Virus record (IMG/VR): IMGVR_UViG_2671180724_000008
DNA length: 64,000 nucleotides
DNA from: a virus
Taxonomy: Duplodnaviria > Heunggongvirae > Uroviricota > Caudoviricetes
Reading direction: 5' to 3' (one strand)
This document shows, one piece after another, positions 15,189-47,448 of this stretch. The position numbers and the translations under genes are program-made. The notes beneath the pieces are model-generated. The model ran no database searches. It saw only the letters and a program-made list of their open reading frames with translations, and had not been told where the DNA came from. Position 1 is the stretch's first letter. Each line of letters starts with the position of its first letter.

Positions 15189-15243
15189 CCTGCTTCTGTA
15201 TATATAAATAATAAGTAACTTATTAAATATATACGGAAGCAGG
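15189..15243. repeat. 55-bp composite palindrome, copy 1 (17-bp GC-anchored arms cctgcttcYgtatatat around an AT-rich core containing aataagtaacttatt)
   Basis: Read directly; second copy at 47394-47448 in inverted orientation judged by flank match gtcttt(t)aaa. Confidence 0.85.
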
Positions 15244-15279
15244 CTTAATAAGACATGCCCAGACCTAATTAAACAACCC

Positions 15280-15322
15280 AGAAAACAAGTTGGTTAGAAA
15301 ATGCAGTAAACAAGTTGTTTTA
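15280..15322 (+). promoter_or_regulatory. Two operator motifs (agaaaacaagttggtta; gtaaacaagttgtttta) upstream of the terminase operon
   Basis: Members of the GAAAACAA..TTGTTT family. Confidence 0.5.
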
Positions 15323-15360
15323 GAGCGCATGGACGCGCTCTGTGTGTTTTAGAGGGATCT

Positions 15361-15993
15361 ATGACGGTCGAAAAAGACGAGGTAAAAACTCGCCTGACAC
15401 CAGCGGAGTGGGCCGAAGCTGAAGCCAAATGGACGTCAGGCGAATATACACTCTCAAAGCTGGAGGAAGAGTACGGCATTCGTCGTGAAACACTCTCCAG
15501 ACATTTCAAAAAGCGAGGATTAGAGAAAGGCGCGGACTCTGTTGGGAAGATGGTTCGTGAGTCTCTTAAATCTGACGCAGAGCTTCGCGCTAAAGCCCGT
15601 GCGGAAAAGATAGAAGAACGTCGTACACGTTATGACGGCTGGGCGTATGCGTTGGGGCAGATGGTGATGGTCGAAGTCACTACGGCCAAACGTGAGGGTA
15701 AGCCTTTAGGGGCGATTGAGGATTCTCTCAAGAGCTTACAGAGAGCCAGTAATACCCTTGCAAAATGCTTTGAAGTTTCGTCCAAAGCATTGGGCATGGA
15801 TCATGCGGAAAATGACGAGGAAGAAATTCCGAACCTGGTATTTGGTGAGCTTACGCCTTCCCAGGTGGCGAAATTACGTCAGGAAGACGACGAGCCTGAA
15901 ATCATCGATGACGAATTGCTTGAGACGTTGGAAGAAGAAGCTCTAAGCGAATTTGATGCGACAGATGATGGAAGTGAAGGGGAGGACGAATAA
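15361..15993 (+). CDS. Terminase small subunit (putative)
   Basis: Position directly upstream of large terminase; basic N-terminal half, highly acidic C-terminus. Confidence 0.6.
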   Translation: MTVEKDEVKTRLTPAEWAEAEAKWTSGEYTLSKLEEEYGIRRETLSRHFKKRGLEKGADSVGKMVRESLKSDAELRAKARAEKIEERRTRYDGWAYALGQMVMVEVTTAKREGKPLGAIEDSLKSLQRASNTLAKCFEVSSKALGMDHAENDEEEIPNLVFGELTPSQVAKLRQEDDEPEIIDDELLETLEEEALSEFDATDDGSEGEDE

Positions 15994-17249
15994 TGGCAAT
16001 CCCGTCCTCGCTCAGTCTTGTGCAACTGCATTCTGGACAGATGAAAGTCTTCCAGTCTCCGCATCGATTTAAAGTTGTTTGTGCTGGTCGACGCTGGGGA
16101 AAATCCCGGTTGTCGATCTCCACTATTATTCGTGCGGCGGCAAAGGAAAAAAAGCAAAGGGTCTGGTATGTCGCTCCTACTTACCAGATGGCTCGCCAGA
16201 TTTTGTGGGACGATCTACAGGAAGTTCTGCCTCGTAAGTGGGTTAGGAAAAAGAACGACACCACGATGACAATCGTGTTGAAGAACGGTTCGGAGATCGC
16301 CCTCAAAGGTGCTGATAAGCCTGACACTCTGCGCGGCGTAGCGTTGCATTTTGTAGTGCTTGATGAATTTCAGGATATGAAGGCTGACACCTGGTACAAG
16401 GTGTTACGACCTACTCTTTCATCGACACGCGGCGGTGCACTTATCATTGGTACGCCAAAAGGTTTCTCGGAATTTCACAAACTGTGGACTATAGGCCAGA
16501 ACGTAGAGCTGCAAAGAAAGGGACAGTGGAAGAGCTGGCAGTTTGTAACTGCCGATTCTCCGTTTGTGCCTACGGCGGAAATTGAAGCTGCTAAGAACGA
16601 TATGGACCCGAAATCGTTCGCTCAGGAGTACCTGGCGAGCTTTGAGAACATGTCCGGGCGCGTTTACTACCCGTTCGATCGTAACGTGCATGTAAAACCG
16701 CTTCAGTTCAACCCTCGGTTGCCTATATGGGTAGGGCAGGACTTCAACATTGACCCGATGTCTTCAGTAATTTTGCAACCTCAGCCAAATGGTGAGCTAT
16801 GGGCAATTGATGAATTGGTGCTCTTTTCCTCTAACACGGCAGAGGTTTGTGATGAGCTTGAGAGACGCTTCTGGCGCTGGAAATCACAGATAACGGTATT
16901 TCCAGATCCGGCAGGTGCTTATCGCCAACATGCTCGCGGGGAGTCTGACGTCGACATATTCAAAGAGAAGGGATTCTTACGTGTCGATTATTCGAAAAAG
17001 CACCCGCCAATTGCGGATCGTGTTAATGCTGTTAACCGAATGCTGATGACCGCATCTGGAGATATCCGGTTGTATATCGATCCGAAGTGCAAGCATTTGA
17101 TTGATTCACTGGAAAAAGTCATCTACAAGCCTGGAACACGAGATATGGATAAGACAGGTGGCATTGAGCATAGTGCAGACGCATTGGGCTATCCAGTACA
17201 TCGTAGGTATCCAGTCAAAAACCGTGTTATTCTTGGTGGTTCTCGATAG
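15993..17249 (+). CDS. Terminase large subunit
   Basis: Walker A CAGRRWGKS, Walker B VVLDEF, C-terminal nuclease-type acidic residues; ATGG overlap with TerS stop. Confidence 0.85.
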   Translation: MAIPSSLSLVQLHSGQMKVFQSPHRFKVVCAGRRWGKSRLSISTIIRAAAKEKKQRVWYVAPTYQMARQILWDDLQEVLPRKWVRKKNDTTMTIVLKNGSEIALKGADKPDTLRGVALHFVVLDEFQDMKADTWYKVLRPTLSSTRGGALIIGTPKGFSEFHKLWTIGQNVELQRKGQWKSWQFVTADSPFVPTAEIEAAKNDMDPKSFAQEYLASFENMSGRVYYPFDRNVHVKPLQFNPRLPIWVGQDFNIDPMSSVILQPQPNGELWAIDELVLFSSNTAEVCDELERRFWRWKSQITVFPDPAGAYRQHARGESDVDIFKEKGFLRVDYSKKHPPIADRVNAVNRMLMTASGDIRLYIDPKCKHLIDSLEKVIYKPGTRDMDKTGGIEHSADALGYPVHRRYPVKNRVILGGSR

Positions 17250-17275
17250 GTAAGTAATTATCTAAGGTTATTCAA

Positions 17276-18850
17276 ATGGAATTGAACGACAAACAAATTA
17301 AGGATCTGGTGGCGCGACGCCACCCGGAATACGAAAAGAAAAAAGAACATTGGGACTTCCTCGCCAGCACTTACGCTGGCGGGCGTGGTTGGTTTACAGA
17401 CAATATCTTTCGTTACTTTAAAGAGGGAGATCAGGAGTTTAAGGAGCGAGTTGAGCGTGCTTATCGCTTCAACCACACTCGTGAGGTGGTAAACCTCATC
17501 AACAAATATCTCTTTAAAGAAGACATTCATAGAAATATCGAAGAGGCACCAGAGCAGATCCGCAATTTCTGGAAACGTGCGACTCGCCAGAATGCCTCTA
17601 TTGACTCATTTATGGCCGCTATTGATTTGCAGTCGTCTATTTACGGTCGCATATGGGTTGTTGTCGATAGCACGATGAGTGGTGATGTTGAGTCAGTAGC
17701 TGACGAGAAAAAGAAAGATGCTCGCGCCTACGCCTACTGGATTTCACCTCAGCAAATGCTGGATGTGGCATGGGACGACGACGGGAATATGTTGTGGGCG
17801 TTAATTGTGGAAGTCGCTCGTGATGACGCAGATCCTTTTACTTCTACAGGTCAGGAATACCAACGTTATCGTCTGTGGACACAAAACGAGTGGTATCTGT
17901 TCCGTGAGGAAGTGAAGAAGGGCGCTGGTGGAGCAGGTCGCCGTCAGGCAAAAGTTATTTTAGAGGATAGCGGTGAGCATAATCTCGGCGTAGTTCCTGT
18001 GTTTCCTGTTGATTGTATTGGAGAAAGTGAATCACCGTATTTCAGCCCATCGTTGATCGATGATATCGCTTATCTTGATCGTGCGGTTGCAAACTATCTG
18101 TCAAACCTTGATGCCATTATTCAGGATCAGACATTTAGCCAGTTGGCTATACCGGTACAGTCGCTTTTACCTGGTGATGAAAACCACACTAAAGTGCTTG
18201 AAATGGGCACAAAGCGAGTCTTCACCTACGATTCTGAAGGTGGAAACCAGCCGTTTTATTTGTCACCAGACCCGAAACAAGCTCAGATGATCATCACTAC
18301 GATTAAGACGGTGATTAACGAAATCTACCATTCAGTTGGTGTCGCTGGTGAGCGAACGAAGCAGGACAACGCACAGGGAATTGATAACTCATCTGGTGCC
18401 GCAAAAATGTATGACTTCCAGCGTGTAAATAGCTTGCTTGTCACAAAAGCAGAGCGTCTGGAAAGGGCTGAACGCCAAATCATGCTACTGGTTGCGAAAT
18501 GGATGGGGGTAGATCTGGACGAAGACCACTCTTTAATTGCGTATCCAGAAAGTTTCGATATTCGTGGCCTTACAGATGAATTTTCTGTTGCCGAGAAACT
18601 GTCATTACTTCAGGCACCGGACTCTGTACGTCGTCACCAGATGGAAATGCTTATTGAGAAGATTTTCCCGAACATTACTGAGGCGATGAAAAAGGAATTT
18701 GATAAAGATCTCTTGAATTTTCCGCCAAAAAATGATCTAAATACCCTTGAAAATAAGTCAGTACTTACTTATGATCGTGGTGCAGCCCAAGAAAGCGGGC
18801 AAGATCAACCCCGAGGGAATGGGGACTCATCTACTCAAGAGAACGAGTGA
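17276..18850 (+). CDS. Portal protein
   Basis: 524 aa, immediately after terminase; size and position typical. Confidence 0.75.
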   Translation: MELNDKQIKDLVARRHPEYEKKKEHWDFLASTYAGGRGWFTDNIFRYFKEGDQEFKERVERAYRFNHTREVVNLINKYLFKEDIHRNIEEAPEQIRNFWKRATRQNASIDSFMAAIDLQSSIYGRIWVVVDSTMSGDVESVADEKKKDARAYAYWISPQQMLDVAWDDDGNMLWALIVEVARDDADPFTSTGQEYQRYRLWTQNEWYLFREEVKKGAGGAGRRQAKVILEDSGEHNLGVVPVFPVDCIGESESPYFSPSLIDDIAYLDRAVANYLSNLDAIIQDQTFSQLAIPVQSLLPGDENHTKVLEMGTKRVFTYDSEGGNQPFYLSPDPKQAQMIITTIKTVINEIYHSVGVAGERTKQDNAQGIDNSSGAAKMYDFQRVNSLLVTKAERLERAERQIMLLVAKWMGVDLDEDHSLIAYPESFDIRGLTDEFSVAEKLSLLQAPDSVRRHQMEMLIEKIFPNITEAMKKEFDKDLLNFPPKNDLNTLENKSVLTYDRGAAQESGQDQPRGNGDSSTQENE

Positions 18851-18871
18851 TAAGTAACAAAGGGAATTTTT

Positions 18872-19759: not shown

Positions 19760-19784
19760 CATCTAAATCAAAGGGAATTGATAG

Positions 19785-20660: not shown

Positions 20661-20694
20661 TCAGTATAGTAGATAAGTAGTTATCTATGTTAAA

Positions 20695-28700: not shown

Positions 28701-30362
28701 TCAGCTAACGCCTCGCAGCGTACGGCCAAGAAGGAACAGGCAGCGCAACAGAAACTGGCAGCCGGATACCAGAAGGCTCTGGACAAAGCCGATCAGCTTA
28801 TGGGGCAAATGGGTGAAAGCTCTAAGGCTACGGTATCGTTTGATCAGTCTCTTCGCGATACAACGAAATCGCTGACAGATTTGGCTAATGCGGTTCCTAA
28901 CGAGTTCATCACTCAAGAGATGATCGACAAGGCGAAAAAACGTCTTGAAGACCTCAAAAATGCGACACCTGAATATCGTGAGATGTTTAATCGCCGCAAT
29001 GTTGAGCAGATGATCTCCACTTGGGCACCGGAGGCGGATTCCATTATTAGTGCTGGCTATACGCCGTCTCGCGAAGAGAAAGTTGCTGATTTCGAAGACA
29101 CCTACAACCGCAATCTCAAAGCGTTGATAGAACTTCGTGATAAGGCGTCTGATCCTAAAGTTGTGGCGCTTTATACAAAGAAAATCAATCAACTGATTGC
29201 TGCTGGCAATACCGCGCTTATTAAAGAGACGGGGACTGCGACGCAGAAGTTGGCACTGGAATACGAAAACTTGGCAGAGCAGATCGAAAGCACCTGGACT
29301 GATTTGTTTAGTGGCTTAACTGATGTCCTGACTGATTTCGTTATTAACGGGAAGATGAGCTTCTCCAGCCTATCTCAGTCCATTTTGAAAGATATCACCA
29401 ATATGGTCGTGAAGTCGCAAATCACGCTGCCTCTAATGAACATGTTGGGGATGGGAACCACCGCAGCTGGTAGTTCACAGAGTGGCAATTTGCTCACTGG
29501 AGTTGCTTCTGCCGTTGCCAATCAAGGTGTACGAATGGGCAACACTGTTAATGGCGACAAGTCGGTAGGAGAAGCCACGAAGGAGACGTCCAGTTCGGTA
29601 ACTGGATTGGGGCAAACAACACAGCAGACCACCAGCGCAATTGGCACAGCAACAAATGCGATTGGTAGCTGGGTATCGGGGCTATTTGATAGCACCGAAG
29701 CCAAAGATGCTGAGACAAAAGCAGTGAAGGACTCCATCTTCTCGATGCAGAACCTCAGCTCTGTTACCGGCGCTCTGTCTGCCGCGTTTGCAATGCTTGG
29801 AGCTAATGCTTCCGGCTCTGGTAATAAGTGGTTGAATTTCGGCGCGACAGTTGCATCTGGTTTGGTTTCAGTATGGGCTGGTGGTGGATTCGATGGATTG
29901 ATGTCCGGTTCTTCTGGCTCAACTTCCGGGTTCAACAATCTGACCAGTTCTGCTGCCGATGGCACGAATGGTATTCCTGCAATTCCGAAGTTTGCAAATG
30001 GTGGCATATTCGGAAAAGACGGCGTGATCCCGCTCCGGGCATACCAGAAAGGCGGTATCGCCAACTCACCTCAATTGGCGTTGTTTGGGGAAGGCGATAT
30101 GAATGAGGCGTATGTTCCATTGCCTGATGGTCGAACAATCCCTGTAACGCTCAGTACCGATGGTATGAGTGGAGGAGGAAATGTTCTTTCTCCGGTATCA
30201 ATTGAGATCAACGTCCATAGTGACGGTAGCACAACTGAATCCGGCGATACAGAAAGCATATGGAACAATGCCGCTCAACGGATGAAAGCAATCGCGCTTG
30301 AGACTATCGCTCAAGAGAAACGCCCTGGCGGATCACTCAACCCAAACACTCAACGTAACTAA
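25770..30362 (+). CDS. Tail tape measure protein
   Basis: 1530 aa, coiled-coil and Gly/Ala-rich hydrophobic segments, position. Confidence 0.9.
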   Translation: MAEDDKGMSQNVEFILSLEDKQFTASIDRAGKLLTRFGEQVTKPAQKIQTFERSLGSVARIIGVLESKLDSTADKLQDVAAGFELASDATRKMRGNITSLNSGLKALIERVDTTTSSVDKLTASLRKVQSELNDFSDWATYASKSASRFGTEVKEASASVSGMNTRLNTTTKRLSNWGVTTSQAAEGLKKVREQMDEVIGRQQLISKPVRVRTSGSGDGGSGRRSGASGHSGKSNEGGMFSGLRGNIFLLGEIGDAARTVTDIMFGWQKPIVEAAAEMERMRVMLRGLNKEKSNPGQAAADDMKYIVDMAQNAPFAMQALTDSFVKFRSAGLDPTDGSLKALVDSVARFGGDSELLKRAAVAVQQMSGKGVVSMEELRQQLGEAVPNAMQAMADAAGITMGELTKAVASGTVEAKQALSLMFVGLRAENENAAKDMMQTYTGALAQLQTSFTLFADRVGQAGYLDSLSKGMKELASIMNSAEGISFANSLGSGLTTAIDGLRQLAQWLAKNQELVINLGKVVAAMVAFKLMRAGIMGVVGAGSQMVSTFATMATAIQTPFNLGATAVTRFNRAARMGLAPIPSLIFAIRGAITGLKGAFAGLTAFIAANPIGAAFTVATVAVAGLITYMTMLRSETSKVVDEIRKIPEAMTAAKRAQMADRAEKLEKQILADQRALKTGEGVNYVSNSAGVITHKESKADIEARLKKNQEEYQKITGTIALGDGAVAKRLAKEAAESQIEKIRAENQIFAATFVKARQEALDKIQKINDDGSLSDDEKNKLLAPLRETVNKSYLEPAQKLVDSLSSRKNATEKQIATLNDQLEKAKKDGNTEQIQKLQGSIRGYQEHLEAVAQELTQAEFERDNAAKTGKGVMSNQGTVLGLGTTDKAAQKALAQYMRNQMDSATYQRTLPDGTPMMDFEGKPIIGPKQLKTQLNLQKASSASSLEKMSDEERAAAIAALTKAREQDAAAAEKAAQRSANASQRTAKKEQAAQQKLAAGYQKALDKADQLMGQMGESSKATVSFDQSLRDTTKSLTDLANAVPNEFITQEMIDKAKKRLEDLKNATPEYREMFNRRNVEQMISTWAPEADSIISAGYTPSREEKVADFEDTYNRNLKALIELRDKASDPKVVALYTKKINQLIAAGNTALIKETGTATQKLALEYENLAEQIESTWTDLFSGLTDVLTDFVINGKMSFSSLSQSILKDITNMVVKSQITLPLMNMLGMGTTAAGSSQSGNLLTGVASAVANQGVRMGNTVNGDKSVGEATKETSSSVTGLGQTTQQTTSAIGTATNAIGSWVSGLFDSTEAKDAETKAVKDSIFSMQNLSSVTGALSAAFAMLGANASGSGNKWLNFGATVASGLVSVWAGGGFDGLMSGSSGSTSGFNNLTSSAADGTNGIPAIPKFANGGIFGKDGVIPLRAYQKGGIANSPQLALFGEGDMNEAYVPLPDGRTIPVTLSTDGMSGGGNVLSPVSIEINVHSDGSTTESGDTESIWNNAAQRMKAIALETIAQEKRPGGSLNPNTQRN

Positions 30363-30404
30363 CTATCGACTGCCCCGACCGGGGCAGTCTCACAAGGATG
30401 TGAG

Positions 30405-30740
30405 ATGGAAAGACAAACGTTTAATTGGTATCCAGATTACGAATCTGAAAAAAGCGTAAAACCGAATGTAACGGTACTTAATTTTGGTGATGACTACGAG
30501 CAGCGACAGGCTCAAGGTCTTAATCGTATTAAAGAAGAATGGTCGTTAACCTTTACCAGATCATACAACGAAATTAATGCAATCGATGACTTCCTGACTG
30601 AGCGAGCAGGCGTTGAGTCGTTCTATTGGGTTAATCCAAGAGGAAAACGGATTGTAGTTGTATGTGACAGTCATACGGTCAAGCGATATCAGGGGTACGC
30701 AGTATTAACCGCTCCATTCAGACAAGTATTTGAGGCTTAA
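30405..30740 (+). CDS. Minor tail protein (lambda gpM-like)
   Basis: 111 aa, first gene after tape measure in an M-L-K-I-J order. Confidence 0.7.
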   Translation: MERQTFNWYPDYESEKSVKPNVTVLNFGDDYEQRQAQGLNRIKEEWSLTFTRSYNEINAIDDFLTERAGVESFYWVNPRGKRIVVVCDSHTVKRYQGYAVLTAPFRQVFEA

Positions 30741-30822
30741 GTATCTGGATAAGTAAGTACTAATTTACTATCATTGTGGCGCTGACAGGATGTTAGCGCC
30801 TACTTATTTCAAGGATGAAACA

Positions 30823-31521
30823 ATGGGAATTAAAGCTGATATTCAGAGCTTATCTCCCTCTGCACTCATTGAGTTGTTCGTACTGGATATGTCGAACACA
30901 ACTTCAGGGGGGAAGCTATTCTTCCACGCCGGAACAAACGAACTGATGCAACCGGTCGTCTGGCAAGGAGTGACATACGAGCCGTGGCCAATCAAAGCAT
31001 CAGGCTTTGACAAAACTGGCCAGGGAACGTTGCCACGTCCAAAAATTCAGGTATCGAACTTTGCCGGAACCGTCTCTGCGGAAGTTCAGGCAAACGACGA
31101 TCTTGTTGGCTGCCGCATTATTCGCAAGATGACGCTGGCTCGCTTCCTCGATGCCGTTAATTTTAAAGACGGCAACCCAACAGCAGATCCAAACCAACAT
31201 TTCCCGGATGAAATGTGGTTTATCGAACAGAAAACTCTCGAAACTCATCAGGTTGTCGAGTTTGAATTGTCCAGTGTGTTCGATTTGATGGGGGTGCAAC
31301 TGCCGTATCGTCAGATCATTAAAAACACCTGCCCGTGGAAATACCGAGGGCCAGAATGCGGCTATACCGGTCCATATTTCGACAAAAATAACCAGCAGAC
31401 GTCTATGTCTGGTGCGGATTACTGCACAAAACGTTATGACGCCTGTAATGCGCGTCGGAATTATTTTGCCGACGGTGTGATCCATTTTGGCGGATTTATT
31501 GGAGCTACGCGGTATGGGTAA
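30823..31521 (+). CDS. Minor tail protein (lambda gpL-like)
   Basis: C-terminal Cys cluster CPWKYRGPECGY...C...C as in gpL; aagga RBS. Confidence 0.75.
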   Translation: MGIKADIQSLSPSALIELFVLDMSNTTSGGKLFFHAGTNELMQPVVWQGVTYEPWPIKASGFDKTGQGTLPRPKIQVSNFAGTVSAEVQANDDLVGCRIIRKMTLARFLDAVNFKDGNPTADPNQHFPDEMWFIEQKTLETHQVVEFELSSVFDLMGVQLPYRQIIKNTCPWKYRGPECGYTGPYFDKNNQQTSMSGADYCTKRYDACNARRNYFADGVIHFGGFIGATRYG

Positions 31522-32311
31522 TAAAGCAATCCCTGAGCTTGGCTCTGACGTTATGCAGCAAATCTATCTCTGCGCCATAAATCGCTACCCTAATGAAGCG
31601 TGTGGCTTTCTGGTTAGAACTAATGGCGACAAATATCGCTTTATGGAAGCGCGGAATGTTTCGGAGAACCCGCAGAACACTTTTGTAATGCACGTTGACG
31701 ACATTATGGCGGCAGAGGATGCGGGTGATGTTATCGCAATCTGGCATTCACATACTGATGAATCAGCAGAAGCATCTGATGCCGATCGTGCAGGCTGCGA
31801 AGCGACGGAAGTTCCGTGGATGATTCTGGCTATTCGCAAGAATGTTGAGGGAGATGCCCCTTTCCATTTTAGCGAGATGAATGTGATCACTCCTGATGGT
31901 TTCGAAATGCCATACCTGGGCAGACCGTATGTATTTGGCGTATTCGATTGCTGGATGTTGTGTCGGGACTATTTGAAGCGTGAGTTTAACGTCGAACTAA
32001 ACCCGAACGCACACCTGCATATTCCATCATGGTACACCGGCGATAACGACATTCTCGACCAGAACTACCGAAACGAAGGATTGGTACGGCTTGCACCCGG
32101 AACAGAGCCTCAACGTGGGGACATCTTCTTTATCCAATACGGGAAAATGCCTGACCACTGCGCGGTTTATATCGGTGATGGAATGATTCTTCATCACCAG
32201 ATCGACCGCCTTAGTTGTCGTGCTTATTACGGCGGGATGTATCAGAAACATACGACGCATCACTTGCGTCACAAAGACTTGCTCAAGGGAGATGAGACGT
32301 GTCTGAGTTAG
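31514..32311 (+). CDS. Tail assembly protein (lambda gpK-like; JAB/MPN + NlpC/P60)
   Basis: JAMM motif HSHTDESAEASDAD and NlpC/P60-type Cys in FDCWMLCRDY. Confidence 0.85.
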   Translation: MGNKAIPELGSDVMQQIYLCAINRYPNEACGFLVRTNGDKYRFMEARNVSENPQNTFVMHVDDIMAAEDAGDVIAIWHSHTDESAEASDADRAGCEATEVPWMILAIRKNVEGDAPFHFSEMNVITPDGFEMPYLGRPYVFGVFDCWMLCRDYLKREFNVELNPNAHLHIPSWYTGDNDILDQNYRNEGLVRLAPGTEPQRGDIFFIQYGKMPDHCAVYIGDGMILHHQIDRLSCRAYYGGMYQKHTTHHLRHKDLLKGDETCLS

Positions 32312-32889
32312 TTCATGTGCAGCTTGGCGGCCCTATGGCCAAACATTTTGGCCGCCACTGGCATCTAAAGGTGCGCAATACAAAACAGGCTCTGGATTTA
32401 ATTGAGGCCAACAAGCCTGGGTTTAAAGCATGGATGAAGCGCAATATCAAAACCTATGACAGATACCACATCCAGATCACCAATAAACAGGGCCACAAGT
32501 GGTCTGTGGACGAGAGTGAATATCAGATGATGGGGCAGTCTGACAATATTGCAAAAATCCGCATTACCCCTGTTCCGCGAGGAAGTGGTGGATCTGCTTT
32601 TGGATGGTTTCAGACGGTTGTTGGAGCAGTATTAATGGTTGCCTCGATATGGGTGCCCGCTCTTGCGCCTCTCGGTTTGTCACTGATGATGGGCGGTATA
32701 GCGCAAATCATATCTCCGCAAGCCACTAACGAAAGTGTGAGGCAGGCGGATAACTCGAACTCTTATTACTTTGATGGACCTCAAAACACAACAAACCAGG
32801 GGAACCCTGTACAGCTTATCTATGGCGAGGAAATTTTAGTTGGCTCACAGGTCGTGAGTTCTTCTATCACCATCGACCAGCTTATGTAA
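32299..32889 (+). CDS. Tail assembly protein (lambda gpI-like)
   Basis: 196 aa, hydrophobic Gly-rich central segment, position before J. Confidence 0.7.
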   Translation: MSELVHVQLGGPMAKHFGRHWHLKVRNTKQALDLIEANKPGFKAWMKRNIKTYDRYHIQITNKQGHKWSVDESEYQMMGQSDNIAKIRITPVPRGSGGSAFGWFQTVVGAVLMVASIWVPALAPLGLSLMMGGIAQIISPQATNESVRQADNSNSYYFDGPQNTTNQGNPVQLIYGEEILVGSQVVSSSITIDQLM

Positions 32890-32900
32890 TCAAGGATTTT

Positions 32901-35900
32901 TTGGACATGGAACAGTTCAAGAAGAAAAAATTACCGCTTCTTATTGCCGGTGCTGGTGGCAAGAAAAGTAAAAGCTCCAGCCGTACACCGGTTGAAGCTG
33001 ATGATACTGTCAATTCTCGTGCTATGGCAGCCATCCTCGACCTTCTTGGCGAGGGGGTTATCGGTGGCCTGGTAAATGGCGCAAAGTCGATCTTCATCGA
33101 CGATTTACCGATCTTGAATGAAGATGGCTCTTCCAACTTCAGCGGTATTACATGGGATTTTCGTGACGGCTCACAAGACCAGACGCCAATGGCTGGTTTT
33201 GATTTTGTTGAAACGCCTAAGTCCGTAAATATTCAGCTTAAAAAAACACACGACGTTACGGTTTCAATCGATAACGATGAAGCTGATCGCGTTCGTGTCA
33301 TCATGAAATTCCCCTCTTTACGTAGCGTTGATAAAAGCTCTGGCGATACAAATGGCACTACGGTGAAGTACAAATTCCAGATCGCCAACGGAGACGCAAC
33401 ATTTTCTGATGTAGTGGCAGAAGGTGAGAAAAGCGTTGATATCACGCTAACGGCAAAGAAAACCGGCGTGTATTACCGTAGCTATGAGCTGAAACTGCCT
33501 AAGCCTGGTCGTGCATACAAGGTTAGGGTAATTCGTCTTACAGATGATAACAGTAGCCAGTACCTCTACAACGACACATGGGTTGATTCCATAGGTGAGA
33601 TTGTAGATACACCCATGAACTACCCTAATTCTGCACTTGTTGGCTTAAAGGTCAATTCAGAGCAGTTTGGTAGCACAATGCCTTCCCGTTCGTATTTGGT
33701 GCGCGGTATCAAAATTCGAGTACCGTCAAACTACAACGAATACACCAATACTTATGTCGGCGTATGGGACGGTACTTTTAAGCTGTTGTCTTCTTCAAAC
33801 CCTGCGTGGATTCTCTACGATTTGCTTACCAATACTCGGTATGGTCTTGGGCAATTTGTGTCGGAATCCATGATTGACCTCGGCCAGCTCTACCAGATTG
33901 GTCGATATTGTGACGAAGAGGTCGATGATGGCTTTGGGGGTAAAGAGAAACGCTTTGCAATCAATACGCAGATCACTAGTCGACAAGACGCATACCGATT
34001 AATTCAGGATATTGCCGGTGCATTCCGCGGCATGGTGTTTTGGGCTGGTGGCATGGTTAACATCATGCAGGATAGCCCATCAGATCCGGTAATGATGTTT
34101 ACCAACTCCAACGTCAAAGATGGGCTGTTTACCTATAAAGGTTCTGCGCGTAAAGATCGCCCATCCGTTGCGCTCGTAACCTACAACAACAAGGAGGACG
34201 GTTATAAGCAAAACATCGAGTACGTTGAAGATCAGGACGCAATGCGCCGTTATGGTGAGCGTAAAACAGAAGTCGTAGCATTTGGATGTACAAGCCGAGG
34301 CCAGGCTCACCGAGTTGGTTTGTGGCTTTTGTATACCGCCAGAATGGAGTCGGATGTAATTACATTTACTGCCGGCTTAGACGCCTCATTTCTGATGCCC
34401 GGTGAAACCGTTCTGATTCAGAACAAATATCGTGCAGGTAAACGTAACTCCGGTCGAATTGTGGAGTTTACCAAAAACAGCATCACTCTCGATGCGCCTG
34501 TGTCGTTAGCTAAAAGCGGCAGCTTTATTCGGATATTGAATCAGGAAGGCAAAATCGTTGAACGCGATGTTCTTGAAACTGGCGAAAACATAACAAAGGT
34601 TACGTTTTCAAAAGCCCTGTCGTCAGCGGAAACGCCTGTTTTGAACGGTGTCTGGACAATTACAGAACCAGATCTCGAACCTATGCGCGTTCGCATCGTT
34701 AACATCGCGCAGGGGGAAACGCCGGGTAGCTTTGACATCACCGCTGTTGAGAACAATCCGTCTAAATATGAGGCAATCGACAATGGTGCAACGCTTATCC
34801 CGCAGAATACGACGGTATTGGACCCGACTTACTCCAAGCCATCTAATTTGCAAATCACTGAAGGGACTTATCTCTCAAGCCCGGGAAACCTGTCAGTAAA
34901 ACTGACTGCAACATGGGAAGGGAAATCTCCAGAGTATTGGATCAGTTGGCGACGTTCTGATGAAAACAATGTATCGAACTGGCAATCGGCGCGTGTAACC
35001 GAAGAGCAATACGAAATCGTTAATGTCGCGGAGAATGGACGCTACGACTTCCAACTGTATGCGGTTTCATTCAACGGTAAAAAAACAGAAATTATCAGTA
35101 CCGTTTATCAGGTGCTGGGCACAATGACACCGCCGGATGCACCAACGTCATTAACGGCCGTTGGAGACTATCGTAATGTGATACTAAATTGGGTTAATCC
35201 AGATTCGGTAGACCTTGATCACATTAATGTTTACGCATCCCAGACCAACAATCTGGATACGGCGAAACTGATCGCGGAGTCTGCAAGCACCACCTTTACA
35301 CATGCTGGTCTTGGGGATAGTGAAACGTGGTATTACTGGGTTCGAGCATCGAACAAGCGCGGCATGTTAAGTCCTCCGAACTCAAACTTGGGTACAGAGG
35401 CGACAACTCGCGATGTACTGTCGTTCCTGGAAGGTAAGATTACATCGTCTGAGCTTGGTCAGGCTCTGCTTGAGGACATCCACAGCAAAGCCTCTCAAGA
35501 AGCAGTTGACGAGTTAAATGAGCATATCAACCAGAGCGTCGAATCTTTGGAGGGGGCGGTAAACGACGTTAAGGAAGATATAGCTGAATTAGATAAGCAG
35601 TTCAGCGATAACCTCGCGGATTTTGAAATAAAATTCAACGAGCGTAGCGATGCTTTGGAGAACGCACAAACCGAGCTTAAAGGTGAGGTTTCGGCAACGA
35701 TCGACAAGGTCAATGAAGCGTTTGAAAAAATTGGTGCTACTGATGCTGCAATTGTTGAAATCGAAAACACCGTATCTGAACACGATAAAGCTCTCGCTAA
35801 TACAGTCGAGGCAATAAAGGCTGCAAGAGATGAAGCAGCAGCTCTTATTGCTAAGGAAAGCGAGGCTCGTGTTGAAGGCGATGCTGCAAACGCTAAACAA

Positions 35901-42204: not shown

Positions 42205-42211
42205 TGAGTAA

Positions 42212-42445: not shown

Positions 42446-42514
42446 TAGGTAAGTACACACCTACAACAAAAGGGTGAAATGTGATATAAATCCGCCATCC
42501 CGATTTGACTTTTC

Positions 42515-42850: not shown

Positions 42851-42863
42851 CAGGAGATCAAGG

Positions 42864-43556: not shown

Positions 43557-43557
43557 T

Positions 43558-43809: not shown

Positions 43810-43960
43810 GCCTCAACCCGCTGGTGTGCTTTTCTGCGATGCGGCTACACCGCTATACATCAGCCGTGATGATCTCATGACCGAAGAGACTGAAAGAGAG
43901 GTGCTTTTTCACAATATGATAGGGGAGCGATTGTGTGGATGGGGCAGAAAAGTACCCTAA
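43730..43960 (+). CDS. o-spanin (Rz1-like lipoprotein), overlapping Rz in the +1 frame
   Basis: Signal peptide with lipobox ISGC; gene starts inside the Rz-like gene in a different frame. Confidence 0.55.
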   Translation: MKHLMSYGARMLLLFIMSCTISGCVIKPQPAGVLFCDAATPLYISRDDLMTEETEREVLFHNMIGERLCGWGRKVP

Positions 43961-44137
43961 CAGAAGAGGAGTTTTCTAACATAAAATTTGCATATTATTA
44001 GAGCACAAGGTAGATTTGGCACATGGATGTCAAGTAAATCATCCCTTGCATTAATGCTGCGACGCATACTCGTAGCCTCTAAACCCTGACAAGGGTCGCC
44101 GCTATGACATTAAGTTAATACCGGCTAAGGTGGACAC

Positions 44138-44521
44138 ATGCTGAACGAAAAACGTTCTATACAAACAATTCGCGATTGCACGAGTGTTATCGCAACTCAT
44201 GTGCTGAATAAGCGCAAACTTGAGGTGCGTAAACTTAACAACGATGCGACTGCGCCAAAAGACACTCGCTTCATCGTAACTTTCAAAGACGATGTTGAGA
44301 ATGCTGGTGCCAGTGTAAAACCGTTGGCTGAAGCGATTTTCCTGAACGATCGTGTTCGTTTCATTGTGAAGCCAGCAAAACAATACCCTGAATTAGCACG
44401 GTTTAGTGACCAATTCTCTGAAATTATTGAGAGTGCAATTCGCCGCTTTCTTAATACTCATGGTAGCATTGTCAGCAATACAACTGCTGATGGTACTGCT
44501 CTAAGATGGCACCTACACTAG
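44138..44521 (+). CDS. Hypothetical protein
   Basis: 127-aa ORF after lysis cassette. Confidence 0.5.
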   Translation: MLNEKRSIQTIRDCTSVIATHVLNKRKLEVRKLNNDATAPKDTRFIVTFKDDVENAGASVKPLAEAIFLNDRVRFIVKPAKQYPELARFSDQFSEIIESAIRRFLNTHGSIVSNTTADGTALRWHLH

Positions 44522-45258
44522 AACGCACATACTCTAAAAATCTTTATGAGTTTCCTCACCGTGGGGAAACTCGCGTTTCACGTTTTGGCTACCTCATCAA
44601 CGAAGCATCGCTTTTCAAAATATCTGAAATAACCATTATCGAGCCTGATGATGATATCTGTCTGTATATCCTGATGGAGAAAGTTGGAGCACGAGATCAG
44701 GGTGAACTGATGGACTTCATTCTGGACAGAGGCGAAGATGGAATGTCTGATTCGGACATTATTCAAGCAATTCTGCGTTCCGACATGCTCGATCAGAGCA
44801 GAAACACGATAGCAGGCAGAATTGCATTGCGTGAATACACATTCATCGAGGATGGGGTAGAGATTGACTGCTATCAGATTGCAGGTGTTGAAACAGAAAG
44901 AGCAATAAGGCAAAGGGGACTGTGCAACCTCACGTATCGCTTCCTCCTTCATTGGTACGAACATCTTGTCTGTGATTACAATCAGACCATTCCTGGCGCA
45001 AAAATCTGGGCCGGTCCATTAATGCGAACAGGTGATGTAAGAATTTACAACGCAAAAACTGAGACGTTCGAGGATGTGTTAGGCGAATATGGGATGGGAA
45101 AAGAAACCGGCTTTTTGCCGTGGAACAGAGGATTGTTACTTGATCCAGAATTAAGCTCTTGGTTTCCAAATAAGGTGCAAGTTAACGTTGAGAAATTTAT
45201 CGTACTTATCATCTCCCGCAAAACAAGAACCCCAGTTGGTTTATATCTAAAAGATTAA
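44506..45258 (+). CDS. Hypothetical protein
   Basis: 250-aa ORF; no recognisable motif. Confidence 0.5.
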   Translation: MAPTLERTYSKNLYEFPHRGETRVSRFGYLINEASLFKISEITIIEPDDDICLYILMEKVGARDQGELMDFILDRGEDGMSDSDIIQAILRSDMLDQSRNTIAGRIALREYTFIEDGVEIDCYQIAGVETERAIRQRGLCNLTYRFLLHWYEHLVCDYNQTIPGAKIWAGPLMRTGDVRIYNAKTETFEDVLGEYGMGKETGFLPWNRGLLLDPELSSWFPNKVQVNVEKFIVLIISRKTRTPVGLYLKD

Positions 45259-45382
45259 CAATTAGGCGACTTCTGTCGCCTTTTTTGTTAACAGCCATTG
45301 ATTCTCGCCTAAAAATTCTAAGGCAGCACCTACCATTTAACCTTTACACAGCAGCCGTAGGCATTTAGGCTATATCACATAT

Positions 45383-45399
45383 AAGAAAACAAGTTGTTT
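45383..45399 (+). promoter_or_regulatory. Operator motif agaaaacaagttgtttc upstream of parA-like gene
   Basis: Member of the early operator family. Confidence 0.5.
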
Positions 45400-45434
45400 C
45401 AGACAATAATAATAGACGCAAAGGGAACTCTCCA

Positions 45435-46103
45435 ATGACCAAGATCTTTGTGGTTGGCGGCACAAAGGGCGGGCCTGGCAAATCCACTGTTGCCCAGCAA
45501 ATTGCCGTTTGCCTGAAAGTCAAAAAGAAGAAGAAGGTTTATATCACTGATATAGATATTCAGCGCACGACAACAAGCTGGTGTGAAGACCGTCGACAGA
45601 ACGAAGACCTTGAGCTGATTCCTTTTGCCTACGTTCAGGATGACATCATTAAGCACCTAAAATCGCTTCAGGGTAGAGCTGAGTTTGTAGTGGTAGATGC
45701 TGGTGGCTTTGACTCCGAAATTCAGCGACAAGCGATGCTGATGGCCGACGTTATCATTATCCCGCTGCGTCCTAAGCGTCGTGATTTGAAATCTCTGCGT
45801 GACATCGATCCTATTATCGACAATGTTCGTAATGTAAACGATAAAGTGAAGGTCCGCGCGGTCATGAACCAGTGCCCGGCTTTGCCATCACAAGTGTCTC
45901 GCATTCTGGCGGCTAAAGAGATTGTCGAGACGTTTGGCATCGAGTCTGCGCCAGTCAATCTATATAACCGCAACGTCTACGATGATGCGGAAGAGTCTGG
46001 TCGTTCTATCTTCGAAATGACCGGTAGCGAGCGCGACAAAAAGGCTGAAGCCGAGTTTGAAGAATTTGTAGATTATCTGTTGAGTCTGGAGGAAGAAGAA
46101 TAA
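45435..46103 (+). CDS. ParA/MinD-family partition ATPase
   Basis: Deviant Walker A GGTKGGPGKST; small ParA size typical of type Ib partition systems. Confidence 0.8.
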   Translation: MTKIFVVGGTKGGPGKSTVAQQIAVCLKVKKKKKVYITDIDIQRTTTSWCEDRRQNEDLELIPFAYVQDDIIKHLKSLQGRAEFVVVDAGGFDSEIQRQAMLMADVIIIPLRPKRRDLKSLRDIDPIIDNVRNVNDKVKVRAVMNQCPALPSQVSRILAAKEIVETFGIESAPVNLYNRNVYDDAEESGRSIFEMTGSERDKKAEAEFEEFVDYLLSLEEEE

Positions 46104-46462
46104 TGTCCATGAAAATGGGTGACCTAGCAAAGCGCAAAGAGCCTGATGCACCGGCTAAGAACACAACTCCTTTGCGCCAACCAGTCAGACCACAGGGACG
46201 CCCGACTCGTGGCAAAGAGAAAATTAAGAGCCGCACGATGTCACTGGAGGACGAATACTTCGAACTGCTGGAGATGATGAAGTTCATCCCTCGTTTCGAG
46301 AAATTCACCCGTTCAGACGTGATTCGCGCAGCCATTTTCCATCTGGCAGAGAAGTCACCGCAGGAAATCGAGGACATCGTGAAACTTAACGAGGCGATCA
46401 CAGCTGCCGATGTCACGATGCGTACCGATGAAATCAAACGAGAGTTGATGAAAAAAGGTTAA
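46103..46462 (+). CDS. Ribbon-helix-helix centromere-binding partner (ParG-like)
   Basis: Basic disordered N-terminus, C-terminal RHH-like segment; ATGT overlap with parA-like stop. Confidence 0.55.
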   Translation: MSMKMGDLAKRKEPDAPAKNTTPLRQPVRPQGRPTRGKEKIKSRTMSLEDEYFELLEMMKFIPRFEKFTRSDVIRAAIFHLAEKSPQEIEDIVKLNEAITAADVTMRTDEIKRELMKKG

Positions 46463-46466
46463 AAAT

Positions 46467-46500
46467 CATGCATTGGCGCAATGTACGCGCCAATGCATGA
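46467..46500. repeat. Perfect 14-bp inverted repeat tcatgcattggcgc / gcgccaatgcatga (7-nt loop) between convergent genes
   Basis: Read directly; A-run upstream makes it a plausible terminator for the minus-strand gene. Confidence 0.7.
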
Positions 46501-46514
46501 CTACAGTGTCAGCT

Positions 46515-47282
46515 TTATGCCGCGCTAACACTATGTTCAGTCCTAACCACCCCAACCTTCACAAAAGGGCTACCGTAGCTTGGTGGCTTCTTGATTAATT
46601 TGCCTACATACAGTTTTCTAATATGCTCATCGGCTATTCTGCCAACAAATTCATAACGTTTTGTGTCGGGGCCAAGAGCTATATCCCTTGTAAAGTACTG
46701 CTGAGAACCGGCTTTGACCCAGCATTCAATCCGATAAACTTCCATTATCAGCCCACCATATGTAGCGTAGGCATATTTGAGATTCTCGTCTCTTGGAACC
46801 TTTGCCCATACGCCACGCGTAGCTTCATATAATGCCAGAGCGGACATTCCTGACTTGTAGGTGCTGTTTAGCAGGAAGGCAAGACCGGCGTGCTCAGGAG
46901 CAATTTCAGTTTCCTCTTGCAGCACTAAGTGATGGTAGGCGTCCAGTGATATTCTGCCCATCATGGAACCACTTCCTCGTACCTTATTCGTAAGCTCTCC
47001 GACCCCCATAAGGTCGATGCATGTCGCCTCAACAAGTTTGGCTGTGGTTTCATCCATACCATGACGAAGTATATCTATGCCTAATTTTTTATTAGCCAAA
47101 AGTTCTTTGATCCGCATGGATTTGGGAGAGTCATCGGGATACTTGATGTGATCGAGACAACGAGTCGATTTGCCTTTTCCTATGTAAAACGGTCTTTTCA
47201 TCTTGTCTTCTGTATCATAGAGACAGTAAACATAGTATTTAGCCTTATCCAATGATCTCGCGTATACCGATAAATCGTCCAT
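46515..47282 (-). CDS. GIY-YIG nuclease family protein
   Basis: N-terminal YYVYCLYD...FYIGKGKSTR matches the GIY-YIG motif; only minus-strand gene within ~35 kb of plus-strand genes. Confidence 0.65.
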   Translation of the reverse strand: MDDLSVYARSLDKAKYYVYCLYDTEDKMKRPFYIGKGKSTRCLDHIKYPDDSPKSMRIKELLANKKLGIDILRHGMDETTAKLVEATCIDLMGVGELTNKVRGSGSMMGRISLDAYHHLVLQEETEIAPEHAGLAFLLNSTYKSGMSALALYEATRGVWAKVPRDENLKYAYATYGGLIMEVYRIECWVKAGSQQYFTRDIALGPDTKRYEFVGRIADEHIRKLYVGKLIKKPPSYGSPFVKVGVVRTEHSVSAA

Positions 47283-47393
47283 TATTGCATCTCTTAGCTA
47301 CTGACTAATGCGTTCTATTTTACACATAAGTTTTTAATCAATTTAACAGGCTCAAAGTGTAGAGCTTCTGGGCGTCTAAGACGACAAGTTATG

Positions 47394-47448
47394 CCTGCTT
47401 CCGTATATATAAATAATAAGTAACTTATTAAATATATACAGAAGCAGG
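47394..47448. repeat. 55-bp composite palindrome, copy 2
   Basis: cctgcttccgtatatataaataataagtaacttattaaatatatacagaagcagg followed by tcttttaaaag; matches copy 1 at 15189-15243. Confidence 0.85.

What the first reader, a model, noticed from the sequence alone, without database searches (positions are those of the whole stretch)
15189..47448. Two inverted copies of a 55-bp composite palindrome bracket the entire late (packaging, structural, lysis, partition) block
The element cctgcttcYgtatatat-(AT-rich core with aataagtaacttatt)-atatacRgaagcagg occurs at 15189-15243 and 47394-47448. Flank matching (gtcttt(t)aaa on opposite sides) indicates the copies are inverted relative to each other. Each has 17-bp GC-anchored arms and contains the TAAGTA-type motif found at other promoters in the element. 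Copy 1 sits between a winged-helix gene and the terminase operon; copy 2 sits between the GIY-YIG gene and the replication module. Possible roles are insulating bidirectional terminators (the T-runs face outward), binding sites for the adjacent winged-helix protein, packaging or resolution sites, or recombination sites that could invert or exchange the ~32-kb late block. I cannot distinguish these from sequence alone.
Basis: seen in the sequence. Interest (0 to 1): 0.75.

Follow-up and report, generated by a model that had tools for sequence, protein, structure and literature searches.

The report
Repeated terminator-like hairpin at operon ends
The two 55-bp palindromes are real, but they are direct (not inverted) copies of a roughly 100-nt stem-loop that SSU5-type phage-plasmids keep at the ends of their two or three long operons, most likely to stop transcription between gene blocks, which is a fairly ordinary job done by an unusually well-conserved sequence.

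Summary
The 55-mer is present at 15189-15243 and 47394-47448 (53/55 identical). The copies are direct repeats, not inverted: inverted identity is only 38/55, because the asymmetric AT-rich core has the same orientation in both. Each 55-mer is the top of a longer imperfect hairpin (15167-15265, dG -50.6 kcal/mol, z -11; 47362-47477, dG -38.5). The window is an E. coli SSU5-family phage-plasmid. The element occurs in about 800 family plasmids and never on E. coli chromosomes, always at the same positions: c1 (before terS), c2 (before the replication module), and c3 in SSU5 and many relatives. Each copy normally starts 23-28 nt after a sense-strand stop codon. c2 and c3 carry a sense-strand T-tract; c1 does not. 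In the close relative Cyrano, published RNA-seq drops about 100-fold across the gap holding c2. Distant relatives keep a hairpin at these positions with different arms, and one has a long U-tract at c1. Inversion and deletion junctions are absent from about 840 plasmids. Best reading: paralogous intrinsic-terminator or insulator hairpins. Still unexplained: sequence conservation above that of neighbouring genes, concerted evolution of the copies, and the missing U-tract at c1. A DNA-level role (for example packaging) is not excluded.

The parts
15189..15243 (+). Copy 1 (c1) of the 55-nt hairpin core. The 17-bp arms have a U.G wobble at pair 9/47 on the sense strand. No T-tract follows (CTTAATAAGACA).
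   Evidence: dG -27.7 kcal/mol on +, -22.2 on -
15167..15265 (+). Extended c1 stem-loop, closed by GGTCTGGG / CCCAGACC. It is the longest local inverted repeat in the window.
   Evidence: (dG -50.6, z -11.0), I1, and covariation in the outer helix
47394..47448 (+). Copy 2 (c2) of the 55-nt hairpin core. It has the same core orientation as c1. Pair 9/47 is C/A, a rare variant seen in 3 of 120 relatives.
   Evidence: dG -23.7 on +
47449..47454 (+). TCTTTT tract immediately 3' of the c2 stem. It is conserved after c2 in relatives.
   Evidence: mean longest T-run 4.46 after c2 versus 1.97 after c1
47362..47477 (+). Extended imperfect palindrome around c2, with outer TTCTGG / CCAGAA pairing.
   Evidence: dG -38.5, z -6.35; the TCTGG...CCAGA motif is kept even where the upstream genes differ
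15321..15350 (+). Separate canonical terminator-like hairpin (GAGCGC-atggac-GCGCTC plus TGTGTGTTTT), 78 nt after c1 and just before the terS ATG.
14898..15164 (+). 88-aa MarR-like winged-helix gene, the last gene of the ParB_N/ABC-ATPase operon. Its stop codon is 24 nt before c1.
   Evidence: phrog_900; pLDDT 81.8; TM 0.68-0.76 to MarR/MepR
15361..17249 (+). terS (15361-15993) and terL (15993-17249), the first genes of the late block downstream of c1.
   Evidence: (Terminase_6N/Terminase_3)
45435..46462 (+). parA (45435-46103) and a 119-aa partner gene (46103-46462). In relatives this operon runs up to c2.
46515..47282 (-). GIY-YIG (LEM-3-like) cargo gene, inserted on the opposite strand in the variable spot just upstream of c2.
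   Evidence: no SSU5 homology for the window chunk starting at 46501
47556..49689 (+). Conserved phrog_2500 gene and DnaB-like helicase, the start of the replication block downstream of c2.

Best explanation
The two 55-mers are paralogous, same-orientation copies of a long stem-loop that SSU5-family phage-plasmids place at the 3' ends of their long rightward transcription units. c1 closes the ParB_N/ABC-ATPase/winged-helix operon before the late (terminase-to-lysis-to-par) block. c2 closes the late/par/cargo unit before the replication block. c3, present in SSU5 and many relatives, closes the replication and nucleotide-metabolism block. As RNA, the stem-loop followed by a U-tract (c2, c3) acts as a strong factor-independent terminator. 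It insulates blocks that must be silent in the plasmid state from neighbours that are expressed (par genes, cargo 'morons'). c1 has the same hairpin without a U-tract and is followed 78 nt later by a canonical terminator. It is probably a weak or auxiliary terminator, or a 3'-end-protecting hairpin. Shown: anatomy, orientation, family-wide positions, strand-specific T-tracts, structural conservation with changed arms, and an RNA-seq drop across c2 in a close relative. Inferred: that the hairpin itself causes that drop, that it works the same way in this window, and the role of c1.
For: (1) Position: each SSU5 copy starts 23-28 nt after a sense-strand stop codon. Window c1 starts 24 nt after a stop, and Cyrano c2 25 nt after CYRAN_30. 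(2) All 120 IMG/VR sites fall into the same three positions with the same core orientation relative to the genes. (3) Strand asymmetry: T-tracts follow c2 and c3 on the sense strand only (longest T-run 4.46 and 3.93, against about 2.0 for upstream A-runs). The polymorphic pair is U.G on the sense strand in 81 of 120 copies and C.A in 3. (4) Very stable RNA folds (z -11 and -6.4), with compensatory changes in the outer helix. (5) The structure is conserved at the same positions when the sequence is not: L132 has ACCGCGCTTCC/GGGAACGCGGT arms, the 102-kb K. pneumoniae relative has other arms, and the K. michiganensis-type c1 has degenerate arms plus TATTTTTTTTATTTTTT. (6) In vivo: Cyrano RNA-seq (PMC9928086, S1 Table) gives CYRAN_28-30 log2 values of 5.2-10.8 and CYRAN_31 values of 2.3-4.2 in all 10 samples, about 100-fold where the upstream genes are expressed. 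The 193-nt gap between them contains c2. (7) Variable cargo sits immediately upstream of c2, and homology to SSU5 resumes exactly at c2, as expected for genes added in front of an operon's terminator.
Against: c1 has no U-tract in the E. coli and SSU5 lineages. The simple terminator scan did not call either copy. In this window the gene immediately upstream of c2 is on the opposite strand, and c2 carries a C.A mismatch on the sense strand that costs about 4 kcal/mol. The primary sequence is more conserved (about 93-95%) than neighbouring genes (about 80%) and is shared by all copies in a genome, with lineage-specific core changes. A structure-only element does not need that. The RNA-seq evidence is at gene level and from a relative, and expression on both sides of c1 is too low to be informative. 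In the 102-kb K. pneumoniae relative, the palindromes at the c2 position lack T-tracts. The excess of U.G over C.A could partly reflect ancestry rather than selection.
Confidence: 0.6

Rival explanations
1. The element works at the DNA level as a sequence-specific site for a phage protein: a packaging initiation site (pac/cos) at c1 read by TerS/TerL, or a site for the winged-helix or ParB_N proteins encoded just upstream. c2 and c3 would be secondary sites.
For: c1 sits directly upstream of terS in every lineage, including pMT1, which keeps only c1. SSU5's virion-derived linear record begins and ends inside c1. The arm sequence is conserved beyond what structure requires and is shared among copies. 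c1 lacks a U-tract. The neighbouring 88-aa protein is a MarR-like winged helix. An AT-rich centre with GC clamps favours cruciform extrusion (general knowledge).
Against: There are two or three copies per genome, 32-45 kb apart, which is awkward for a cos site. SSU5's record ends fall exactly at the last base shared by c1 and c2 and at the first base shared by c1 and c3, as expected from an assembly break at a repeat. Cyrano's start was copied from SSU5. TerL is of the Terminase_6N/Terminase_3 type, closest to T4 gp17 and to chain 4zni among solved structures, not the lambda GpA type. Arms differ completely in relatives that keep terS and the winged-helix gene. The strand-specific T-tracts and the fixed distance from stop codons have no DNA-level rationale. 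No paper mapping the termini was found.
Confidence: 0.15
2. The element is an RNA processing or stability element rather than a terminator. The 25-40-bp double-stranded stem would be an RNase III substrate, or a 3'-end protector, that separates or stabilises segments of long polycistronic transcripts, as the intergenic RNase III sites do in T7.
For: The stem is far longer than typical terminators: 24 pairs in the 55-mer and about 40 in the extended c1. c1 has no U-tract. The outer helix lies beyond the U-tract of c2, so it would form only on read-through transcripts. The element sits between gene blocks.
Against: Conserved U-tracts directly after c2 and c3 point to termination. The roughly 100-fold drop across c2 fits termination more simply than cleavage. 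There is no direct evidence of cleavage. RNase III has little sequence specificity, so this reading does not explain the sequence conservation either.
Confidence: 0.12
3. The copies are recombination sites that invert, excise or exchange the 32-kb late block, either site-specifically or as homologous-recombination anchors.
For: Two near-identical 55-bp sequences bracket a functional module. The copies evolve in concert, which implies some sequence exchange between them. The phage family encodes its own exonuclease and recombinase. The cargo region abuts c2.
Against: The copies are direct, not inverted (53/55 versus 38/55). No record among about 840 family plasmids has a single place covering at least 80% of either the synthetic inversion junction or the deletion junction; the best coverage is 54-55%. 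None of 120 IMG/VR sites has a recombinant flank combination. No recombinase gene is adjacent to either copy. The identity profile against SSU5 shows only a modest step at c1.
Confidence: 0.03
4. The copies are plasmid-maintenance sites: dispersed partition centromeres, as in N15, or replication origins.
For: The element is a phage-plasmid with a parA operon about 1 kb upstream of c2. The sites are palindromic and dispersed around the replicon. c2 precedes the helicase/primase genes.
Against: The distance from parAB to c2 varies with the cargo. pMT1 keeps only c1, far from any par locus. The arm sequences are not conserved in relatives that keep homologous ParA. SSU5 has a separate replication-gene region with large flanking intergenic spaces at 59-61 kb. 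The strand-specific T-tracts are not explained.
Confidence: 0.05

Closest known systems
Rho-independent (intrinsic) terminators at operon and 'moron' boundaries of temperate phages
   Same: It is a GC-anchored stem-loop just after a stop codon. A U-tract follows at c2 and c3. It sits between differently regulated blocks, accessory genes accumulate just upstream, and expression drops sharply across it.
   Different: The stem is much longer (a 55-nt core and a unit of about 100 nt). The same primary sequence is reused at two or three sites and is kept across genera at higher identity than the coding genes. One copy (c1) has no U-tract.
Intergenic RNase III processing hairpins of phage T7
   Same: Both are repeated long hairpins placed between genes of long polycistronic units on one strand.
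   Different: T7 sites have characteristic internal loops and are not followed by U-tracts. No cleavage evidence exists here, and c2 and c3 look like terminators.
Dispersed palindromic centromere sites of phage-plasmid N15 (SopB-binding inverted repeats)
   Same: Both are a few palindromes scattered around a phage-plasmid genome, in intergenic regions near phage operons.
   Different: N15 sites are short protein-binding dyads with no fixed relation to stop codons or T-tracts. Here the arms are not conserved in relatives that keep ParA, and pMT1 keeps a copy far from any par locus.
ERIC/REP-type enterobacterial intergenic palindromic repeats
   Same: Both are imperfect palindromes of about 100 nt in transcribed intergenic regions, able to affect mRNA 3' ends.
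   Different: Those are host-chromosomal and occur in many copies. This element has no chromosomal copy in 5,426 E. coli genomes, has fixed syntenic positions, and gave no Rfam match.

Membership tests
Intrinsic (Rho-independent) terminator | Stable GC-containing RNA stem-loop on the transcribed strand | tested here: met
   c1 folds at -27.7 and c2 at -23.7 kcal/mol for the 55-mer alone. The extended forms fold at -50.6 and -38.5, with z -11 and -6.4.
Intrinsic (Rho-independent) terminator | U-rich tract immediately 3' of the stem | tested here: inconclusive
   Met for c2 (TCTTTT at 47449-47454, conserved in relatives) and for c3. Not met for c1 in the window (CTTAATAAG) or in SSU5. Met at c1 in the K. 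michiganensis-type relative.
Intrinsic (Rho-independent) terminator | Located at the 3' end of a co-oriented transcription unit | tested here: met
   The copies start 23-28 nt after sense-strand stop codons in SSU5, Cyrano and window c1. In the window, c2 has an opposite-strand cargo gene interposed.
Intrinsic (Rho-independent) terminator | Transcription stops there in vivo | tested here: inconclusive
   Published gene-level RNA-seq in the close relative Cyrano shows about a 100-fold drop across the gap that holds c2, and only a 2-5-fold drop at low levels across c1. There is no nucleotide-level 3'-end mapping and no data for this exact element.
Invertible DNA segment (Hin/Gin/Cin type) | Inverted repeats flanking the segment | tested here: not met
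   Identity is 53/55 direct and 38/55 inverted. The core orientation is identical in both copies and in all oriented relatives.
Invertible DNA segment (Hin/Gin/Cin type) | Both orientations of the segment found among isolates | tested here: not met
   No record among about 840 plasmids has a place covering at least 80% of the synthetic inversion junction. No recombinant flank combination occurs among 120 IMG/VR sites.
Phage cos/pac packaging site | Adjacent to the terminase genes | tested here: met
   c1 lies 117 nt upstream of terS in the window, and in the same position in all lineages. c2 and c3 are not near the terminase genes.
Phage cos/pac packaging site | Virion DNA ends map to the site | tested here: inconclusive
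   SSU5's linear record ends inside c1, but exactly at the boundaries of identity with c2 and c3, which suggests an assembly break. Cyrano's start was copied from SSU5. No termini study was found.
Host REP/ERIC-like dispersed repeat | Many copies in unrelated chromosomal contexts | tested here: not met
   There are 402 places in 258 of 5,426 E. coli genomes, all on plasmids and none on chromosomes. All 120 IMG/VR sites are syntenic.
Protelomerase target (telRL of N15-type linear plasmid prophages) | Palindrome next to a protelomerase gene on a linear replicon with hairpin ends | tested here: not met
   The PhiR41_1 and pMT1 records are circular. The neighbouring genes are ParB_N, ABC ATPase, winged helix, terminase, GIY-YIG and helicase, with no protelomerase near either copy. 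There are two or three copies per genome.
RNase III processing site | At least about 20 bp of double-stranded RNA, cleaved by RNase III | not testable with these tools
   The length criterion is met structurally. Cleavage cannot be assessed by computation.

The most novel reading that the evidence does not exclude
The hairpins are more than passive terminators. Their invariant arms (CCTGCTTCYGTATA / TATACRGAAGCAGG), kept across genera above coding-sequence identity and homogenised among the two or three copies in each genome, could be the recognition sites of a phage-encoded factor. That factor might be an antiterminator, a structure-specific nuclease or the terminase. It could switch all block boundaries together when the plasmid turns lytic, with the U-tract-less c1 doubling as the packaging entry site next to terS.
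Probability: 0.12. Interest if true: 0.55.

Novelty: new member of a known kind. Interest (0 to 1): 0.3.

Why it matters
SSU5-type phage-plasmids are common in clinical Klebsiella, E. coli, Enterobacter, Salmonella (pHCM2) and Yersinia pestis (pMT1), and they carry resistance and toxin cargo. Three practical points follow if these hairpins really are the punctuation marks that separate plasmid-state genes from lytic blocks.

- They define the transcription units of a poorly annotated family.
- They explain why cargo accumulates just upstream of c2, where inserted genes can be expressed without reading into the replication genes.
- They provide a compact, family-specific sequence marker (about 800 plasmids, no chromosomal hits).

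The finding also corrects a tempting over-reading. The late block is not an invertible or excisable cassette. The unexplained sequence conservation and concerted evolution are modestly interesting, but the core function appears ordinary.

Tried and rejected
- **Inversion or excision sites:** rejected. The copies are direct, and synthetic inversion and deletion junctions are absent from about 840 plasmids and from 120 IMG/VR sites.
- **cos site inferred from SSU5 and Cyrano record starts:** downgraded. Cyrano is pLF82 re-annotated and compared with SSU5. SSU5's ends coincide with inter-copy identity boundaries.
- **Host REP-like repeat:** rejected.
- **Known RNA family:** none. Rfam at gathering threshold found only three tRNAs.
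- **Consensus terminator and promoter scan:** it did not call the 55-mers. It found only the 15321-15350 hairpin and no sigma-70-like promoters near either copy.
- **attC/integron-like site:** the paper that surfaced (PMC9892861) mentions SSU5 only in passing. No GTTRRRY cores were seen in the element by eye.
- **Literature:** no description of the element or of SSU5-type termini was found.
- **Core TAAGT/ACTTA as an operator shared with other TAAGTA dyads:** weak, because the core varies or is absent in other lineages.
- **U.G versus C.A asymmetry as proof of RNA function:** only suggestive. C/A is two steps from the probably ancestral T/G.
- **Sequence search of the 88-aa protein and TerS against solved structures:** uninformative. 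The fold search worked.
- **Mosaic-breakpoint test against SSU5:** only a modest identity step at c1. At c2 the break is a cargo replacement.


Full report
**1. Observation**

The two copies are 53/55 identical and have 17-bp arms around a 21-bp AT-rich core. No further copy exists in the window at up to three arm mismatches.

The claim that the copies are inverted does not hold. Ungapped identity is 53/55 in direct register and 38/55 in inverted register, because the asymmetric core AAATAATAAGTAACTTATTAA has the same orientation in both. Only one arm pair looks swapped: T9/G47 in copy 1 and C9/A47 in copy 2. Copy 1's upstream flank aligns with the reverse complement of its own downstream flank about as well as with copy 2's.

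The real unit is about 100 nt. GGTCTGGG...CCCAGACC closes a stem-loop at 15167-15265 (dG -50.6 kcal/mol, z -11.0). This is the longest local inverted repeat in the window (I1). Copy 2 has an analogous extended structure at 47362-47477 (dG -38.5, z -6.35).

**2. What the window is**

The window is an E. coli phage-plasmid of the SSU5 family. It is 98-99% identical to Escherichia phages CMS-2020a, PhiR41_1 and Cyrano (pLF82), and about 80% identical to Salmonella phage SSU5 and to Klebsiella phage-plasmids.

- Copy 1 lies 24 nt after the stop of an 88-aa gene and 117 nt before terS/terL.
- Copy 2 lies between a minus-strand GIY-YIG gene and a conserved gene followed by DnaB-like helicase and primase. 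parA and its 119-aa partner lie about 1 kb upstream.

**3. Distribution**

The element is family-specific, not a generic repeat.

- It matches 800 PLSDB plasmids, almost all about 100-120 kb and non-mobilizable. The hosts are Klebsiella, Escherichia, Enterobacter, Yersinia pestis (pMT1), Salmonella, Citrobacter and Cronobacter.
- It occurs in 258 of 5,426 complete E. coli genomes, at 402 places, all on plasmids and none on chromosomes.
- About 840 plasmids carry the flanking genes, so roughly 95% of family members keep a BLAST-detectable element.
- SSU5 has three copies: at the junction of its linear record, at 33458-33513 and at 78304-78360. Each starts 23-28 nt after the stop codon of a plus-strand gene (SSU5_130, SSU5_037, SSU5_088).
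- A pattern scan of IMG/VR returned 120 sites. By flank homology, all fall into these three positions: c1 37, c2 54 and c3 29. No site has a recombinant flank combination.
- pMT1 keeps only c1.

**4. Orientation and strand-specific features**

Once oriented by the neighbouring genes, every copy has its core in the same orientation. In most E. coli relatives, c2 is identical (55/55) to the window's c1. The window's C9/A47 is a rare variant. Across the 120 copies the pair is T/G in 81, C/G in 26, T/A in 10 and C/A in 3.

T-tracts follow c2 (mean longest run 4.46) and c3 (3.93) but not c1 (1.97). No copy has an upstream A-tract (about 2.0), so the signal is unidirectional and on the sense strand. 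A TCTGG...CCAGA outer motif is kept even where the genes upstream of c2 differ completely. At c1 the outer helix shows GC-to-AU compensatory changes.

**5. Distant relatives**

These were found through proteins, not through the element. All keep a long hairpin at the same positions, but the sequences change.

| Relative | Relatedness to the window | What sits at the position |
|---|---|---|
| L132 (metagenome) | TerS 50% identical | c1: arms ACCGCGCTTCC/GGGAACGCGGT inside a GGCAT/ATGCC clamp |
| Moellerella, Xenorhabdus | TerS 55-58% identical | c1: longer AT-rich hairpins; the Xenorhabdus one ends CAAGG\|CTTTTAC |
| 102-kb K. pneumoniae plasmid | TerS 53% identical | Unrelated arms at c1 and c2 |
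| Raoultella | TerS 60% identical | CCTGCT/AGCAGG clamp kept at both positions |
| L140 | c2-downstream protein 64% identical | c2: arms kept, followed by a T-rich tail (TCGCTTTTAAAC) |
| K. michiganensis type | TerS 61% identical | c1: degenerate arms followed by TATTTTTTTTATTTTTT, a textbook terminator tail |

A conserved structure with a changeable sequence, plus U-tracts that appear at c1 in some lineages, argues for a hairpin function at transcript ends.

**6. In vivo evidence from the literature**

Cyrano's c2 has the same arms, a different core and a TCTTTT tail. It lies 25 nt after CYRAN_30. In the S1 Table of PMC9928086, log2(fpkm+5) values are:

| Gene | Range over 10 samples |
|---|---|
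| CYRAN_28 to CYRAN_30 | 5.2-10.8 |
| CYRAN_31 | 2.3-4.2 |
| CYRAN_123 (upstream of c1) | 2.9-6.6 |
| CYRAN_1 (terS, downstream of c1) | 2.7-5.6 |

Across the 193-nt gap that contains c2, this is about a 100-fold drop wherever the upstream genes are expressed. I saw no other hairpin in that gap when reading the sequence. Across c1, both sides are low and the drop is only 2-5-fold, which is uninformative. This evidence is at gene level and comes from a relative, so it supports termination at c2 but does not prove it.

**7. Best explanation**

The copies are paralogous terminator or insulator hairpins that mark the ends of the two or three long rightward transcription units. c2 and c3 look like strong intrinsic terminators. 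c1 is the same hairpin without a U-tract and is followed 78 nt later by a canonical terminator-like hairpin (15321-15350). It is probably auxiliary.

The layout makes biological sense. par and cargo genes are expressed in the plasmid state and must not read into the replication genes. Cargo accumulates just upstream of c2, and homology to SSU5 resumes exactly at c2. My confidence is about 0.6.

**8. Rival explanations**

- **Recombination or inversion** is essentially excluded for fixed rearrangements. The copies are direct. No record among about 840 plasmids has a place covering at least 80% of either synthetic junction (best coverage 54-55%).
- **A packaging role for c1 stays open but weak.** SSU5's linear record ends inside c1. 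However, its right end is the last base shared by c1 and c2, and its left end is the first base of the run shared by c1 and c3. That is what an assembly break at a repeat would give. Cyrano's start was simply aligned to SSU5. TerL is of the Terminase_6N/Terminase_3 type, closest to 4zni and T4 gp17 among solved structures. No paper mapping termini was found.
- **An RNase III processing role** is structurally plausible but untestable here.
- **Centromere or origin roles** fit poorly.

**9. What remains odd**

- The 55-mer is about 93-95% identical between lineages whose flanking genes are about 80% identical.
- All copies in a genome share the same arms.
- The cores change together within lineages. 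In E. coli, c1 and c2 both read AATAAGTAAC. In the SSU5 and Klebsiella types, c1 and c2 both read ACTAAGTKAC.

Structure alone does not require any of this. Gene conversion is one candidate, since the family encodes its own exonuclease and recombinase. A sequence-specific trans factor is the other. This is the basis of the 'novel case', to which I give about 12%.

**10. Verdict**

This is a real, family-wide element. It is a new member of a known kind, of modest interest (0.3).

Noticed in passing
window 1540-1625, 2825-2854, 4226-4260, 4711-4745, 5633-5699, 6150-6179, 15265-15324, 45363-45403, 48299-48333, 60384-60413: A dyad box AAACAAnTTGTTT (extended form AGAAAACAAnTTGTTT) recurs at 11 or more intergenic sites. 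It is often found in inverted pairs 32 nt apart (1558-1621, 5633-5694). Two boxes lie between c1 and terS, one upstream of parA and one upstream of the DnaB helicase. It looks like the operator set of a phage regulator.
   Followed up: partly
window 5133, 11955, 18754, 24249, 37662, 50968, 54490, 62561 (and a half-site at 47533): A second dyad, TAAGTA-N4-TACTTA, recurs. Where I checked (11955, 47533) it sits about 18-23 nt upstream of an ORF start. The 55-mer core contains TAAGT-A-ACTTA at a different spacing. Because the core varies between lineages, the resemblance may be coincidental.
   Followed up: partly
window 15321-15350: A canonical terminator-like hairpin (GAGCGC-atggac-GCGCTC followed by TGTGTGTTTT) sits directly upstream of the terS start codon, after the two dyad boxes. 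This resembles a promoter-proximal terminator that would need antitermination for late expression.
   Followed up: no
window 46466-46500: A perfect 14-bp hairpin (TCATGCATTGGCGC/GCGCCAATGCATGA) lies at the convergent junction between the parA partner gene and the GIY-YIG gene. It has a T-run only on the minus strand, so it probably terminates the GIY-YIG cargo gene.
   Followed up: no
window 46463-47393; SSU5 31522-33457; Cyrano 30331-31158: The stretch just upstream of c2 is a cargo hot spot with different genes in each lineage: GIY-YIG here, CYRAN_30 in Cyrano, and DUF2971 and others in SSU5. Upstream flanks were unmatched at 25 of 54 IMG/VR c2 sites.
   Followed up: partly
L135 about 1794-1831 and about 2338-2378 (102-kb K. 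pneumoniae plasmid, GCA_022968745.1): In this distant relative, a different palindrome of about 38 bp (arms TTAATGCTAATG) occurs on both sides of a minus-strand cargo gene at the c2 position. Neither copy has a T-tract. The cargo may have been inserted next to or into the hairpin, duplicating it.
   Followed up: no
SSU5 record JQ965645 / NC_018843, position 1 and position 103299: The deposited linear SSU5 genome starts and ends inside c1, exactly where c1 stops being identical to c3 (left end) and to c2 (right end). This suggests the 'ends' are assembly breaks at a repeat rather than mapped virion termini.
   Followed up: partly
window 11973-14888: The operon upstream of c1 encodes two ParB_N-domain proteins, an ABC-type ATPase and a 296-aa protein in a PHROG family annotated as an ABC ATP-binding subunit, ending with the winged-helix gene. 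It is conserved from E. coli to Xenorhabdus and in pMT1. Its function is unknown and could be DNA modification or defence.
   Followed up: no
window 55257-55500: Three adjacent tRNA genes were detected by Rfam.
   Followed up: no
L136 2287-2500 (Raoultella relative, c1 position): Here the arm-like sequences appear in reversed order: TATATATCGGAAGCAGG, then 43 nt, then CCTGCTCCTCATATAT. This looks like two adjacent degenerate elements or a rearranged one, and it folds into a different large hairpin.
   Followed up: no
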